From IMG/VR virus record IMGVR_UViG_3300024346_000005: a stretch of 64,000 nt of DNA; one strand, written 5' to 3'. Numbering within the stretch: position 1 is the stretch's first letter; every line of letters begins with the position of its first letter. Source of the DNA: a virus. Lineage: Duplodnaviria; Caudoviricetes. Under the pieces are notes generated by a model. That model was not told the DNA's origin, made no database searches, and worked only from the letters and a program-made list of their open reading frames with translations. The position numbers and the translations under genes are program-made. Positions 247-22,565 of the stretch are shown in pieces.

Positions 247-435
247 ATGTCTGTATCACAAGAACTACTGACTGCTATTGAAGCGTGGAAAGTAGAAGAC
301 GAAAAGTTCACTGCTGGTAATAGTGCCGCTGGTACTCGTGCCCGTAAGGCACTTCAGGAAGTTGCCAAACTGGTCAAGACCCGTAGAGGCGAGATTACCG
401 AAGAGAAGAACGCCCGTAAGGAAGCAAAGGGTTGA
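247..435 (+). CDS. small basic protein resembling histone H1-like Hc1 family nucleoid proteins
   Basis: Segment EKFTAGNSAAGTRARKALQEVAKLVKTRR is Lys/Arg rich and resembles the AAGTRARKA motif of short bacterial Hc1-like proteins. Confidence 0.55.
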   Translation: MSVSQELLTAIEAWKVEDEKFTAGNSAAGTRARKALQEVAKLVKTRRGEITEEKNARKEAKG

Positions 436-460
436 CTTTAGTGCCCTGATGCCTTATAGT
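432..460 (+). promoter_or_regulatory. sigma70-type early promoter
   Basis: TTGACT (432-437), 17 nt, TATAGT (455-460), directly upstream of the tRNA cluster. Confidence 0.7.
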
Positions 461-461
461 A

Positions 462-541
462 GTTTGACGGGTGGAGGAGGTCCAAACTTCTTATAAATCC
501 CACACCTCCCAAGCCTCTCAACGATGCTCAAACAGGGAGGT
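462..541 (+). ncRNA. candidate structured (possibly pseudoknotted) RNA ahead of tRNA-Arg
   Basis: ACCTCCC/GGGAGGT 7-bp helix enclosing an AGC/GCT stem; GTTTGA (462-467) complements TCAAAC (528-533); AGGAG/CTTCT hairpin; no credible ORF. Confidence 0.45.
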
Positions 542-549
542 CCCTTTAT

Positions 550-622
550 GTCCCGTTAGCTCAGGAGACAGAGCAATTCTCTTCTAAAGAATCGGTCGTG
601 GGTGCGAATCCTACACGGGACG
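550..622 (+). tRNA. tRNA-Arg(TCT)
   Basis: Acceptor GTCCCGT/ACGGGAC, anticodon arm ATTCT-CTTCTAA-AGAAT, T loop TGCGAAT; CCA not encoded. Confidence 0.9.
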
Positions 623-623
623 C

Positions 624-703
624 TTGCTACTTTGCACTGGAAAGATAAACCAGAATGCCGGTAGCAAACGAGGGTAAGTCCCTGTTATATCCTTATGAGA
701 TAT
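624..703 (+). ncRNA. candidate structured RNA in the Arg-Asn spacer
   Basis: TTGCTAC/GTAGCAA helix with nested GCA/TGC and CTGG/CCAG stems, then AGGG/CCCT and ATATC/GATAT hairpins. Confidence 0.4.
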
Positions 704-722
704 ATCACACTTGCCCCATCAT

Positions 723-795
723 TCCCCGATAGCTCAATTGGTAGAGCAAAGTGCTGTTAACACTGAGGTTGTTGGATCGTGCCCAACTCGGGGAG
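723..795 (+). tRNA. tRNA-Asn(GTT)
   Basis: Acceptor TCCCCGA/TCGGGGA, anticodon loop CTGTTAA, atypical T loop ATCGTGC. Confidence 0.85.
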
Positions 796-957
796 TTGGA
801 AGGTCTGGAAATGTCTGGGTCTTCCAAAACAAAAACGCTAAACAAACTTCGGGAGGAAACTCCCAACCGATTTGGAAATTACCTGAAAAACAGGAAGAAT
901 AAGGTTTGGTGTTTTTTGCAGAAAGTGTCTTCTGCGGGTGTCGGACACTCGATACCC
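796..957 (+). ncRNA. candidate multi-helix ncRNA with complementary (kissing) loops, filling the Asn-Thr spacer
   Basis: Helices 796-802/821-827 and 831-843/904-916 (13 bp), GGGAG-GAAA-CTCCC, CCTG/CAGG; adjacent hairpins with loops AGTGTC (924-929) and GACACT (944-949) that are exact reverse complements. Confidence 0.6.
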
Positions 958-961
958 ATCC

Positions 962-1033
962 GCCCTTGTAGCTCAGTGGTAGAGCAACGGTTTTGTAAAC
1001 CGTTGGTCGTCCGTTCAAATCGGATCAGGGGCT
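962..1033 (+). tRNA. tRNA-Thr(TGT)
   Basis: Acceptor GCCCTTG/CAGGGGC, anticodon arm ACGGT-TTTGTAA-ACCGT, T loop TTCAAAT. Confidence 0.92.
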
Positions 1034-1061
1034 TGACATAATATTCGTTATGTCTTATAAT
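1033..1061 (+). promoter_or_regulatory. consensus sigma70 early promoter
   Basis: TTGACA (1033-1038), 17 nt, TATAAT (1056-1061). Confidence 0.8.
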
Positions 1062-1102
1062 TCATGAGTCCGTGTGGAGGAGCATACTTCCCTAAATAGG
1101 AA

Positions 1103-1585
1103 GTGTATGTGCTAAGTAAAATGAGAACTAAAACTGAATTATTAAATGCAGTTGAAGCATCTCAATCAATGGCTGAGGTCGTAAGGAGATTGGGTCTTAA
1201 TAAAAGTAGCACTACTTATGCTACTTTAAAAAAAGATTTTGCACATCACAATATACAACCTCAATTTAAAAAAAGAAGTAGGAACACTATTCCTTATACT
1301 TTTGAGGAAATGTTTTGTGAAAATTCTACTTGCGATAGATCAACTCTTAGGAATAGAATTATTAAAGAAGAAATTTTCAAATATAAATGTTCCGAATGTG
1401 GTATAATTGATTGGAATGGACAAAAACTTTCTCTTCAATTAGACCATATAAACGGAGTTTCTAATGATAATAGGATGGAAAATCTAAGATTTCTTTGTCC
1501 CAATTGTCATTCTCAAACAAAAACTTGGGGGAATAAAAATAATTTCCCCGCCGAGAGTGATGCCAAAAGTAAGGCACCCCGATAA
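1103..1585 (+). CDS. HNH endonuclease, free-standing, inside the tRNA cluster (start may be GTG 1109 or ATG 1121)
   Basis: CSEC...LQLDHINGVSNDNRMENLRFLCPNCHSQT is an HNH/Zn-finger signature; N-terminal HTH-like segment (SMAEVVRRLGL). Confidence 0.9.
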   Translation: MYVLSKMRTKTELLNAVEASQSMAEVVRRLGLNKSSTTYATLKKDFAHHNIQPQFKKRSRNTIPYTFEEMFCENSTCDRSTLRNRIIKEEIFKYKCSECGIIDWNGQKLSLQLDHINGVSNDNRMENLRFLCPNCHSQTKTWGNKNNFPAESDAKSKAPR

Positions 1586-1622
1586 GGGATACGGTAGAAG
1601 GATGCGAAACCTTCCACTCTCA
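1553..1622 (+). ncRNA. tRNA-like element with a truncated anticodon arm
   Basis: Acceptor-like GAGAGTG/CACTCTC+A, D-like GCC/GGC arm, T-like GAAGG-ATGCGAAA-CCTTC, but only a 3-bp CCC/GGG stem with a 5-6 nt loop where the anticodon arm should be. Confidence 0.5.
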
Positions 1623-1627
1623 ACATT

Positions 1628-1698
1628 GCGGATATGGTGTAGTGGCAACACAAGAGTTTTCCAAACTTTTATCCTCGGTTCAAATCCGTGTATCCGCT
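1628..1698 (+). tRNA. tRNA-Gly(TCC)
   Basis: Acceptor GCGGATA/TATCCGC, anticodon loop TTTCCAA, T loop TTCAAAT. Confidence 0.9.
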
Positions 1699-1757
1699 TC
1701 CCCTAAAATATCAGGGGAGCTAAATAAACTTCGTAGTTGTAAATCTTAACGAACTAT

Positions 1758-3239
1758 ATGAAATTTTTCAAACAAATGATGCTTGTGCCTGTTGCACTGA
1801 GTCTTGTTGCTCCTGCTGTGAATGCCGCAGAACTCAATACTGAGGATGTCAACAAGTATGCTTCGGCACAACAAGTCACTAGCATTACACAATTTACTGA
1901 TGTCCAACCTACTGATTGGGCATATCAGGCACTTAGCAATCTTGTAGAGCGTTATGGTTGCGTAGCAGGTTATCCTAACGGCACATACAAAGGTGGTCAG
2001 GCAATGACCCGTTTTGAGGCAGCAGCACTGCTGAATGCCTGCCTTGATCGTGTAACTGAAACCACAGATGAACTCAAAAAACTTCTTGCTGAATTTGATA
2101 CAGAACTAACTGTACTCACTTCTCGTGTAGATGGTCTTGAGAACAAAGTTGGACAACTGCAGGCAACTCAGTTTTCAACCACTACCAAACTCAAAGGTGA
2201 AGTAAACTTTATTCTTGGCGGTGTTCCTGGTCTTGAAACTAACAAACGTGTTGATGTAGGTAATACTGCATTCAACTATGATGTTCGTCTGAACTTTGAT
2301 ACCTCTTTCACTGGTAAGGACTTGCTCCGTACTCGTCTGCGTTCTGGTAACTTCAGTAGCGATCCTTTTGGTTCCAGTTCTTCACTCTTCAAACTTGATA
2401 AGGCAGAATCTTATGCCGACCAAGTTGTGATTGACCGTCTGTACTATCAGTTCCCAGTTGGTAAGAGTGTAACTCTAACTGCTGGTCCTCTGGTTCGTAA
2501 CACTGAGATGGCATGGGTTCCTTCTGCTTATAAGTCGGAAATCCTTGACTTCTTTCAACTTGGTGGTGCCTCTGGTGTCTATAACAAGGCAACTGGTGCT
2601 GGTTTTGGTGCTCAATGGAAGCAACAAGTTCCAAAAGGTCAGGGAGGTTTCCTTGCTGGTCTGAACTATGTCTCTCAAGATGGTGATAACACTGAAACTG
2701 GTGTCTTCAATTCAGATAGTGGATTGAACTTTATGACACAAGTTGGTTATCGTGCTCCTCAGTGGGGTGCTGCCGTTGCTTACCGTTATGGTACTGAAGG
2801 CAGTCGTGTCCGTACCTTCAACGCCCTTGGAGGCGGGTCTGGTGCCCTTGCCGCAGGTCAGGAAAGCAATAGCGTTGCTGTGAATGCTTACTGGCAACCT
2901 TCTCAGAGTGGATTCGTTCCTTCTATCTCAGTTGGTTATGGATATAATGATGTAGATGGTAAAGGTTCTAAAACTGGTGCCACCGATTCTGATTCCTGGT
3001 TCGTTGGACTTCAGTGGTCTGATGTGTTTGCCAAAGGTAATACTGCTGGTGTTGCTATTGGTCAACCCGGTAATTCTGACTTCGTTGGTGAAGATGCCGC
3101 GATGCTTGAAGTCTTCTATAAGTATCAAGTTTCGGACAACATCAGCATCACTCCTGCTATCTTCTATGTGAGCAATAATGCCCGTTATCAAGGAGAATCT
3201 TCTTGGGGTGGTGTGGTTCAGACCAAGTTCACATTCTGA
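1758..3239 (+). CDS. cyanobacterial Som-type outer-membrane porin (SLH domain plus OprB-like barrel)
   Basis: Signal peptide, SLH motif FTDVQPTDWAYQALSNLVERYGCVAGYP...TRFEAAALLNACL, coiled coil, QFSTTTKLKGE, C-terminal Phe (TKFTF). Confidence 0.92.
   Translation: MKFFKQMMLVPVALSLVAPAVNAAELNTEDVNKYASAQQVTSITQFTDVQPTDWAYQALSNLVERYGCVAGYPNGTYKGGQAMTRFEAAALLNACLDRVTETTDELKKLLAEFDTELTVLTSRVDGLENKVGQLQATQFSTTTKLKGEVNFILGGVPGLETNKRVDVGNTAFNYDVRLNFDTSFTGKDLLRTRLRSGNFSSDPFGSSSSLFKLDKAESYADQVVIDRLYYQFPVGKSVTLTAGPLVRNTEMAWVPSAYKSEILDFFQLGGASGVYNKATGAGFGAQWKQQVPKGQGGFLAGLNYVSQDGDNTETGVFNSDSGLNFMTQVGYRAPQWGAAVAYRYGTEGSRVRTFNALGGGSGALAAGQESNSVAVNAYWQPSQSGFVPSISVGYGYNDVDGKGSKTGATDSDSWFVGLQWSDVFAKGNTAGVAIGQPGNSDFVGEDAAMLEVFYKYQVSDNISITPAIFYVSNNARYQGESSWGGVVQTKFTF

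Positions 3240-20109: not shown

Positions 20110-22565
<2,456 letters not shown>

What the first reader, a model, noticed from the sequence alone, without database searches (positions are those of the whole stretch)
796..957. Compact multi-helix RNA with perfectly complementary adjacent loops between tRNA-Asn and tRNA-Thr
Seen: the 162-nt spacer is almost fully paired, with a 7-bp hairpin, a 13-bp helix (831-843/904-916) closing a junction that holds a GAAA-tetraloop hairpin and a CCTG/CAGG hairpin, then two abutting hairpins (918-935, 936-957) whose 6-nt loops AGTGTC and GACACT are exact reverse complements. Established: T4 co-transcribes stable RNAs of unknown function (RNA C and D) with its tRNAs, and tRNA processing would free both ends of this spacer. 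Inference: a discrete ncRNA with a loop-loop contact, either intramolecular or driving dimerisation.
Basis: partly seen in the sequence, partly recalled or inferred. Interest (0 to 1): 0.8.

Follow-up and report, generated by a model that had tools for sequence, protein, structure and literature searches.

The report
Modular structured RNA after phage tRNA-Asn
The gap between two transfer-RNA genes of this cyanobacterial virus encodes a real, conserved, folded RNA made of interchangeable hairpin modules and absent from RNA catalogues, but its striking pair of complementary loops is kept only by invariance and is not shown to pair.

Summary
The + strand folds far better than shuffles (z = -6.2); the - strand does not. 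The stems are backed by compensatory changes in more than 100 uncultivated cyanomyovirus contigs and in Synechococcus phage S-SRM01.

The spacer is not one compact unit. It is one architecture (A-B2-C) out of at least 13 collinear combinations of hairpin modules. These fill the slot behind tRNA-Asn:
- hairpin A starts 0-2 nt after tRNA-Asn, or right after a promoter in some relatives;
- the middle domain is exchangeable;
- the twin hairpin C ends 3-5 nt before whichever tRNA follows.

No Rfam family matches, including manA, ROOL and GOLLD. No cellular genome carries the twin hairpin.

The two C loops are almost invariant, so their complementarity cannot be tested by covariation. Most relatives have a G·U where the window has A-U. 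The rare loop variants break the pairing without compensation. A contact within one molecule is sterically unlikely.

Best reading: a hairpin-capped RNA excised from the tRNA operon, whose loops are recognition surfaces. Partner and function are unknown.

First-stage readers of this scan flagged look-alike RNAs after tRNA-Asn in three other genomes.

The parts
432..460 (+). sigma-70-like promoter at the head of the tRNA operon (TTGACT-17-TATAGT)
   Evidence: No + strand terminator, and no other + strand promoter-like site before 1014, between it and the spacer.
722..796 (+). tRNA-Asn(GUU), no encoded CCA. It is the upstream neighbour of the spacer family in 114 of 125 loci.
796..827 (+). Module A: 13-14-bp hairpin with four G·U pairs and a conserved apex UGGAAAUGUC (loop 810-813). 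It begins 0-2 nt after the tRNA-Asn discriminator.
   Evidence: Fold. 43 unique homologues have 6 covarying pairs. In L004 it starts 8-9 nt after a -10 box.
831..916 (+). Module B2: junction domain closed by the 13-bp helix 831-843/904-916 and the 3-bp extension 848-850/897-899.
   Evidence: 12 unique homologues; the outer helix is never broken; G-C/A-U and C-G/U-A double changes occur.
851..864 (+). GNRA-tetraloop hairpin GGGAG-GAAA-CUCCC inside B2. Two relatives have GCAA. Most relatives have a longer arm with a palindromic tip.
867..875 (+). Weak 2-bp remnant of the third B2 arm (CACCC/GGGUG in relatives).
882..894 (+). Hairpin CCUG-AAAAA-CAGG inside B2 (6 bp, UUCCUG/CAGGAA, in relatives).
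918..935 (+). Module C, hairpin C1: 6-bp stem with invariant loop AGUGUC (924-929).
   Evidence: No G2 or G4 variant exists in IMG/VR.
936..957 (+). Module C, hairpin C2: 8-9-bp stem, loop G-N-CACU (944-949). N is A945 here and G in most relatives.
   Evidence: A945G is seen in an RNA-library contig.
958..961 (+). 4-nt linker AUCC before the RNase P site of the next tRNA (3-5 nt in relatives).
962..1033 (+). tRNA-Thr(UGU). In relatives this position holds Val, Thr, Leu, His, Met or Ala tRNAs.

Best explanation
The 162-nt spacer is one member (architecture A-B2-C) of a virus-only family of modular, + strand structured RNAs. The family occupies the slot behind tRNA-Asn in the tRNA operon of freshwater and estuarine T4-like cyanophages.

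Shown here:
- the helices are real and under selection;
- the modules are collinear but individually exchangeable;
- the loops of A, C1 and C2 are nearly invariant while their stems drift with compensation.

Inferred mechanism:
- The segment is transcribed as part of the tRNA precursor.
- It is cut free by RNase Z-type cleavage after the tRNA-Asn discriminator. In some relatives it instead begins at a transcription start at the same place.
- RNase P cleavage at the next tRNA frees the 3' end.
- The released RNA begins with hairpin A at its first nucleotide and ends with the strong hairpin C2 4 nt before its 3' end. Both ends are therefore shielded from 5'-end-dependent RNase E/J and from 3' exonucleases, and the RNA persists as a small stable species.
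- Its invariant loops act as sequence-specific recognition surfaces for an unidentified partner. That partner could be a protein, another RNA, or copies of itself.
For: Structure and strand:
- z = -6.2 on the + strand against -1.9 on the - strand.
- Covariation supports A, C1, C2 and B2.

Conservation:
- 19, 27 and more than 117 IMG/VR contigs were found with anchors in A, B2 and C.
- Phage S-SRM01 carries a homologue.
- The spacer is better conserved than tRNA-Asn.

Fixed boundaries:
- A starts 0-2 nt after tRNA-Asn.
- In L004 it starts 8-9 nt after a TTGACA-17-TAATAT promoter, with no tRNA-Asn nearby.
- C ends 3-5 nt before the next tRNA, whatever its identity.

Architecture: 77 unique spacers fall into 13 collinear architectures.

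Loops against stems:
- Loops are invariant while stems covary.
- No G2 or G4 variant of loop 1 exists in 2.9 million viral contigs.

Not coding: spacer lengths differ by non-multiples of 3.

Transcription: no + strand terminator, and no promoter-like site before 1014, lies inside the operon segment. Reads identical to 658-946 occur in an estuarine RNA library. That evidence is weak.
Against: - No experiment or raw-read data shows a discrete stable species. The RNA-library evidence is depth 2, from contigs, and DNA carry-over is not excluded.
- A and C are each dispensable in some phages: L145 and L149 lack A, and 7 of 19 A-anchored loci lack C.
- Modular shuffling fits equally well with a string of independent cis elements.
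- No partner has been identified.
Confidence: 0.55

Rival explanations
1. Purely cis-acting spacer. The hairpins insulate neighbouring tRNAs from misfolding, position RNase Z/E/P cuts and protect the precursor. Once excised the RNA has no role of its own.
For: - The position is strictly tied to tRNA ends.
- Individual modules come and go without loss of the operon.
- The segment is almost fully paired, so it resists RNase E, which cuts single-stranded RNA (plus established knowledge).
Against: - An insulator needs structure, not sequence. Yet the loops of A, C1 and C2 are invariant across lineages whose stems have changed on both sides.
- The other tRNA junctions of the same clusters are only 1-5 nt long and have no such element.
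- A-B1-C persists in L004 behind its own promoter, without tRNA-Asn.
Confidence: 0.25
2. Self-assembling RNA. The complementary C1 and C2 loops cannot meet within one molecule, so they pair between molecules ('hand in hand') and give dimers, rings or filaments. Other self-complementary loops in sister modules may help. This is the surviving form of the first reader's dimerisation idea and a special case of the best explanation.
For: - The 6-nt complementarity is present in the large majority of copies (49 of 56 unique, counting G·U).
- Loop-loop duplex energy is -6.4 kcal/mol in the window and -5.8 in the majority form.
- Chance expectation is about 3e-4 to 3e-3 (my arithmetic).
- Sister modules carry palindromic loops that stay palindromic while changing: the B2 arm tip reads CUCUAGAG, CCUUAAGG or CCUUGCAAGG, and the B1b loop reads UGAUCA or GGCC.
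- Precedents exist. The manA RNAs of cyanophages (<200 nt) build pentamers and 60-mer cages through intermolecular kissing loops (bioRxiv 10.64898/2026.07.01.735769). ROOL and GOLLD, often near phage tRNA islands, do likewise (bioRxiv 10.1101/2024.12.08.627333).
Against: - No covariation between the loops.
- Position N of loop 2 is U or C in 7 of 56 unique copies. The predicted duplex energy then falls to about -2.5 kcal/mol.
- The AGCGUC variant in 3 contigs is uncompensated, at -0.3 to -2.4 kcal/mol.
- The window's own B2 arm has a GAAA loop, not a palindrome.
- The palindromes would also fit DNA-level sites.
Confidence: 0.2
3. Intramolecular kissing of the two abutting hairpins, giving a compact tertiary fold.
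For: The loop complementarity is the same as above.
Against: - The linker between the stems is 0 nt in every copy.
- A 6-bp loop-loop helix stacks between its two stems, as in TAR-TAR* or the HIV DIS (established knowledge). That puts the stem bases about 20 bp apart, too far for a 0-nt linker to bridge (inference).
- No covariation is seen.
- The alternative nested helix is 12 kcal/mol worse than the two hairpins.
Confidence: 0.05
4. Cassette of decoy or antitoxin-like RNAs against host defences, carried in the tRNA operon together with the abiF-motif RNA at its head.
For: - Presence and absence of modules shuffle between close relatives, as in arms-race loci.
- An Rfam abiF RNA sits at the start of the same operon, here and in relatives.
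- The element is found only in viruses.
Against: - No similarity to any known antitoxin or decoy RNA.
- No cognate host system has been identified.
- The function of the abiF motif itself is untested.
Confidence: 0.07
5. DNA-level element. The inverted repeat AGTGTC-N14-GRCACT and the palindromes would be protein binding, recombination or homing sites, and the RNA folds would be incidental.
For: - Inverted repeats and perfect palindromes are what dimeric DNA-binding proteins recognise.
- Homing-endonuclease genes insert at module boundaries.
Against: - The stems covary through G·U intermediates and are rich in G·U. This only makes sense in + strand RNA (z-scores).
- The majority loop 2 makes the DNA repeat imperfect, while the RNA pair is kept as G·U.
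Confidence: 0.04

Closest known systems
Phage T4 RNAC and RNAD (species 1 and 2 stable RNAs of the tRNA region)
   Same: - Non-tRNA small RNAs encoded with the phage tRNA genes of a T4-like virus.
- Their function is still unknown (PMC9697503).
- Their ends are made by tRNA-type processing (my recall of the 1970s T4 literature).
   Different: - No sequence similarity: blastn of the spacer against 50,697 phage records, T4 included, finds only S-SRM01.
- The T4 RNAs are not known to be modular or tied to tRNA-Asn.
manA RNA motif (RF01745) of cyanophages and Photobacterium
   Same: - A small (<200 nt) multi-hairpin RNA of cyanomyoviruses. In S-CREM1 it lies just upstream of the abiF RNA (PMC9964418); in this window and its relatives the abiF RNA heads the tRNA operon.
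- It carries loop pairs that are complementary within one molecule but pair between molecules (bioRxiv 10.64898/2026.07.01.735769).
   Different: - No match to the Rfam model here or in nine relatives.
- The fold is different.
- The position is different: between tRNAs rather than in a 5' UTR.
- Oligomerisation is untested here.
ROOL and GOLLD large ornate RNAs
   Same: - Phage or prophage RNAs often found next to tRNA islands.
- Function unknown.
- Quaternary structure held together by kissing loops (bioRxiv 10.1101/2024.12.08.627333).
   Different: - They are 500-800+ nt, against 40-260 nt here.
- No Rfam match.
- No modular presence/absence pattern is reported for them.
Functional tRNA-operon spacers of E. 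coli (3'ETS-leuZ, ITS-metZW sRNA sponges)
   Same: By-products of tRNA precursor processing that act in trans by base pairing (my recall of Lalaouna et al. 2015).
   Different: - Those are short, weakly structured and bacterial.
- Here no target is known, and the element is highly structured and viral.
phi29 pRNA right and left loops
   Same: Two loops of one RNA that are mutually complementary but pair only between molecules, giving rings (my recall).
   Different: - pRNA is a packaging-motor component of a podovirus.
- No homology or context link; it is only a mechanistic analogy.

Membership tests
manA RNA motif (RF01745) | Match to the Rfam covariance model | tested here: not met
   No manA hit in window 400-1800 at E <= 10, in the whole window at gathering score, or in nine related loci at E <= 0.1.
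ROOL / GOLLD | Match to the Rfam covariance models; size above 500 nt | tested here: not met
   No hit. The element is 162 nt.
tRNA or tRNA-like element | Cloverleaf recognised by ARAGORN or RF00005 | tested here: not met
   Neither tool calls anything in 797-961.
T4 RNAC/RNAD-type stable RNA of a phage tRNA cluster | Encoded between or next to phage tRNA genes on the same strand, with no promoter or terminator of its own | tested here: met
   It lies between tRNA-Asn and tRNA-Thr. No + strand terminator, and no promoter-like site before 1014, lies between 460 and 1033.
T4 RNAC/RNAD-type stable RNA of a phage tRNA cluster | Accumulates as a discrete stable RNA during infection | not testable with these tools
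   Only contigs of metatranscriptomes are available. Identical 151-nt pieces cover 658-946 at depth 2. Ends and abundance cannot be read.
T4 RNAC/RNAD-type stable RNA of a phage tRNA cluster | Sequence homology to T4 rnaC/rnaD | tested here: not met
   blastn of the spacer against all phage records returns only S-SRM01 and a chance hit.
Kissing-loop pair | Loops complementary over 4 nt or more | tested here: met
   AGUGUC/GACACU pairs 6 of 6 in the window. In 49 of 56 unique copies it pairs 6 of 6 with at most one G·U.
Kissing-loop pair | Compensatory change between the two loops | tested here: not met
   - No loop-loop pair has changes on both sides.
- The variants N=U/C and U3->C break pairs without compensation.
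- No CGCU partner loop exists in IMG/VR.
Kissing-loop pair | Geometry that allows the contact within one molecule | not testable with these tools
   The 0-nt linker in all copies argues against it, by inference from known kissing complexes. No 3D modelling was available.
Protein-coding gene | Open frame kept among homologues | tested here: not met
   Overlapping ORFs run through the tRNAs. Homologous spacers differ by 1, 2, 17, 28 ... nt.

The most novel reading that the evidence does not exclude
The spacer RNA is a small self-assembling RNA. The mutually complementary C1 and C2 loops cannot meet within one molecule, so they pair between molecules. In relatives the palindromic tips of other modules would pair in the same way. 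Copies excised from the tRNA operon would then build dimers, rings or filaments. This would be a new, modular member of the recently discovered world of phage RNA-only assemblies (manA, ROOL, GOLLD) that cluster around tRNA genes.
Probability: 0.2. Interest if true: 0.8.

Novelty: new member of a known kind. Interest (0 to 1): 0.55.

Why it matters
Phage tRNA clusters have long been known to carry extra stable RNAs that nobody can explain; T4 RNAC and RNAD are still of unknown function. Recent cryo-EM work shows that several phage RNAs found near tRNA genes are self-assembling cages.

This family adds several things:
- It is uncatalogued and virus-only, with over 100 natural variants.
- It has a cassette-like architecture, which gives a natural deletion series.
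- Its boundaries are fixed by tRNA processing sites, so its ends can be predicted to the nucleotide.
- Its invariant loops are obvious mutagenesis targets.
- A culturable phage, S-SRM01, carries it, so the questions of whether it is stable, what it binds and whether it oligomerises are directly testable.

It could also be submitted to Rfam as one or several new families: hairpin A, the twin hairpin C and domain B2.

Tried and rejected
- **Rfam** at gathering score on the whole window, at E <= 10 on 400-1800 and at E <= 0.1 on nine relatives gave nothing for any spacer module.
- **blastn of the 51-nt twin hairpin** against phage records was too short to find even S-SRM01.
- **The window's own assembly** is not held. 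The nearest record, G001, lacks the region.
- **A scan of 185,579 cellular genomes** for C1 plus the start of C2 gave 0 matches. A host origin is therefore not supported.
- **The hunt for loop covariation** gave little.
  - The AGCGUC scan found 3 true copies, all uncompensated. The rest were chance hits in coding DNA.
  - The CGCU partner-loop scan gave only chance hits.
  - The G2 and G4 variant scans gave only chance hits.
- **A second copy in the window** does not exist. The covariance model R1 with filters off gives 70.5 bits for 916-961 and 11.7 bits for the next best site.
- **An alternative nested helix** made from the two loops scores -8.0 against -20.4 kcal/mol for the two hairpins, so a switch is rejected.
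- **An intrinsic terminator role for C2** is rejected: no T-run follows it, and no + strand terminator was called.
- **The resemblance of the loops to the tRNA-Asn anticodon stem** of this phage (AAGUG/CACUG) is not conserved in relatives, so it is treated as coincidence.
- **RNA-library contigs** cannot show ends, strand or level. Gaps in cover are not evidence.
- **Literature searches** found no description of this element. The S-CREM1 and S-SRM01 papers list only Rfam hits and tRNAs.

Full report
**Context.** The window comes from a T4-like cyanophage. Rfam finds wcaG, PhotoRC-II, two group I introns, an abiF-motif RNA and six tRNAs; ARAGORN finds seven tRNAs. A sigma-70-like promoter lies at 432-460. 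It is followed by the abiF motif (505-541), tRNA-Arg (550-623), tRNA-Asn (722-796), the spacer in question, and tRNA-Thr (962-1033). A perfect consensus promoter follows at 1033-1061. No + strand terminator, and no + strand promoter-like site before 1014, lies in between. The spacer is therefore transcribed as part of a tRNA precursor. The nearest named relative is the freshwater Synechococcus phage S-SRM01. The window's own assembly is not held.

- The minimum-energy fold of 796-961 is -63.5 kcal/mol against -39.5 +/- 3.9 for 200 dinucleotide shuffles (z = -6.2).
- The reverse strand reaches only z = -1.9. This is expected, because many pairs are G·U.
- One detail differs: the first hairpin is 14 bp long (796-827), not 7.

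**The spacer is a composite, not a unit.** Three independent sequence anchors were scanned over IMG/VR. Reading these loci shows a modular layout.
- Hairpin A follows tRNA-Asn within 0-2 nt.
- The twin hairpin C ends 3-5 nt before the next tRNA.
- Between them lie optional, self-contained modules, always in the same order: B0, B1, one of B2/B3/B4, D, E.
- Among 77 unique Asn-to-C spacers there are 13 architectures. The commonest are A-D-C (19), A-B0-B1-C (17) and A-B1-C (13).
- The window's A-B2-C occurs in three unique sequences.
- Two spacers lack A (L145, L149). Seven of the 19 A-anchored loci lack C.
- The upstream gene is tRNA-Asn in 114 of 125 loci. The downstream tRNA is Val, Thr, Leu, His, Met or Ala.
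- In L002, L004, L005, L012 and L013 a promoter, not tRNA-Asn, precedes hairpin A. In L004 an HNH-type ORF ends there, and a TTGACA-17-TAATAT promoter with an extended TG places the start 8-9 nt upstream of the first base of A.

The same 5' boundary is thus produced either by tRNA 3' processing or by transcription initiation. This is the strongest hint that an RNA beginning with hairpin A is the relevant entity.

**Each module is a real RNA structure.**
- Hairpin A (43 unique sequences): 95% of cells are paired, against 36-60% when partners are slid. Six of 13 pairs change on both sides. The apex UGGAAAUGUC is conserved.
- Twin hairpin C (56 unique sequences): 98% paired, against 32-52% when slid. 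Two covarying pairs lie in C1 and four in C2. An unbiased sample taken from the A- and B2-anchored loci adds further compensated stems, such as GCGUCA/UGGCGC.
- Domain B2 (12 unique sequences): the 13-bp outer helix is never broken. It shows G-C/A-U and C-G/U-A double changes plus several G·U/A-U/G-C single changes. The window's copy has a simple GAAA hairpin where most relatives carry a longer arm, and its third arm is degenerate.

**It is not a known family.** No Rfam model matches any module in the window at E <= 10, or in nine relatives at E <= 0.1. This covers manA, which earlier first-stage notes on other genomes had suggested from memory, and also ROOL and GOLLD. Further evidence:
- The twin hairpin occurs once in the window.
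- It occurs in no genome of 185,579 prokaryotic species.
- Among 50,697 phage records it occurs only in S-SRM01.
- The papers describing S-SRM01 and the related estuarine phage S-CREM1 list only tRNAs and Rfam hits.

**The complementary loops.** Loop 1 is AGUGUC in every copy but three. Loop 2 is G-N-CACU, with one exception (GGUACU in L149), where N faces U5 of loop 1.
- N is G in 44, A in 5 (the window among them) and U or C in 7 of 56 unique copies.
- The window's perfect Watson-Crick match is therefore a minority form. The usual state has one G·U, and about one copy in eight has a mismatch.
- Targeted scans of all IMG/VR found no copy with G2 or G4 of loop 1 changed.
- They found three contigs with U3 changed to C. 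All three keep A opposite it, and two of them also have N = U. The predicted loop-loop duplex then drops from about -6 to -0.3 kcal/mol.
- No copy has the compensating CGCU loop.

By my arithmetic, two 6-nt loops match by chance with probability 3e-4 to 3e-3, so the match is unlikely to be an accident. But invariance of both loops could equally reflect binding of other partners.

A contact within one molecule is improbable. The stems abut with a 0-nt linker in all copies. A six-pair loop-loop helix stacks between its stems, which places the stem bases some 20 bp apart. This is an inference from known kissing complexes. The nested alternative helix is 12 kcal/mol worse than the two hairpins.

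**A hint towards contacts in trans.** Sister modules carry self-complementary loops that stay palindromic while changing. The tip of the long B2 arm reads CUCUAGAG, CCUUAAGG or CCUUGCAAGG, and the B1b loop reads UGAUCA or, in another lineage, GGCC. The inner pairs of such palindromes cannot form in a hairpin. They fit intermolecular duplexes, or DNA-level sites.

There is precedent. manA RNAs of cyanophages, under 200 nt, assemble into pentamers and 60-mer cages through kissing loops between molecules (bioRxiv 10.64898/2026.07.01.735769). ROOL and GOLLD, often near phage tRNA islands, form cages in the same way (bioRxiv 10.1101/2024.12.08.627333). I rate this reading at about 0.2. It is the most novel one that the data leave open.

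**Expression.** Four metatranscriptome runs were laid on 400-1800.
- One estuarine library holds two 151-nt pieces identical to 658-808 and 796-946, at depth 2.
- Another holds a contig joining tRNA-Asn through a D hairpin directly to module C, which is a relative with the D-C architecture.
- A third covers 900-1021 with A945G.

These are contigs. DNA carry-over is not excluded, and ends and strand cannot be read. This shows presence in RNA libraries and nothing more.

**Most likely mechanism.**
- Shown: a conserved, strand-specific, modular structured RNA with fixed boundaries at tRNA processing sites and invariant loops.
- Inferred: excision by RNase Z-type cleavage (or a transcription start) at its 5' side and by RNase P at its 3' side.
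- Inferred: protection of both ends by hairpins A and C2, leading to accumulation as a small RNA.
- Inferred: sequence-specific recognition of the loops by an unknown partner.

The main rival is a purely cis-acting processing and insulation element. It is weakened by the sequence invariance of the loops, by the absence of such elements at the other, 1-5-nt tRNA junctions of the same clusters, and by the persistence of A-B1-C behind its own promoter.

**Verdict.** This is a real and uncatalogued RNA family of a known general kind: non-tRNA structured RNAs embedded in phage tRNA clusters, like T4 RNAC and RNAD, whose function is still unknown (PMC9697503). Its picture of a single compact RNA and of a proven loop-loop contact is not.

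Noticed in passing
window 505-541: An Rfam abiF-motif RNA (57 bits, gathering score 37) sits between the operon promoter (432-460) and tRNA-Arg. The same motif heads the tRNA cluster in L147, L040 and L061. It was reported once before in a cyanophage, S-CREM1 (PMC9964418).
   Followed up: partly
window 1033-1698: A perfect consensus promoter (1033-1061) is followed by an HNH-type ORF (1103-1585) and then tRNA-Gly. Relatives lack the ORF and have only a ~45-nt leader with a GGGAGA-GAAA-UCUCCC hairpin. An RNA-library contig joins 1059 to 1549, which is the ORF-less form in a relative.
   Followed up: partly
window 1553-1622; L051, L059, L071, L087 and others, downstream of module C: A further family of ~95-nt elements is closed by a 7-bp stem followed by CACA/CAUA (GUAGGUG...CACCUAC-CACA). 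They lie between module C and the next tRNA in about 20 loci. They resemble the tRNA-shaped element that another first-stage note describes at 1553-1622.
   Followed up: no
L070:3596-3625: The apex of hairpin A (GGUUGGAAAUGUCCGA) is grafted onto a different stem inside the element that follows module C. The apex therefore behaves as a transferable sub-motif.
   Followed up: no
L001:1650-1675, L030, L065 (B2 arm); B1b hairpins in many loci: Loops and arm tips are perfect palindromes and stay palindromic while changing (CUCUAGAG, CCUUAAGG, CCUUGCAAGG; UGAUCA or GGCC). The window's own copy lacks this tip.
   Followed up: partly
window 624-721: The 3' half of the tRNA-Arg to tRNA-Asn spacer is nearly identical to that of S-SRM01 (GAGGGUAAGUC..GUUAUAUCCUUAUGAGAUAUAU.ACACUU) and contains a UAUAUC/GAUAUA hairpin. 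It may be another conserved spacer element.
   Followed up: no
window 810-819 and 921-931: The apex of hairpin A (GGAAAUGUCU) and hairpin C1 (AGAAAGUGUCU) share the string GAAA-(G)UGUCU. This may mean common recognition or common origin.
   Followed up: no
window 21883-22109 and 22226-22456: Two group I introns lie 117 nt apart (88 and 63 bits).
   Followed up: no
L075, L080, L144, downstream of module C: The tRNA that follows module C appears cut after its D arm (CCUCUGGUAUUCUAUUGCUAAGGA) by an AT-rich insertion. This could be an interrupted tRNA gene.
   Followed up: no
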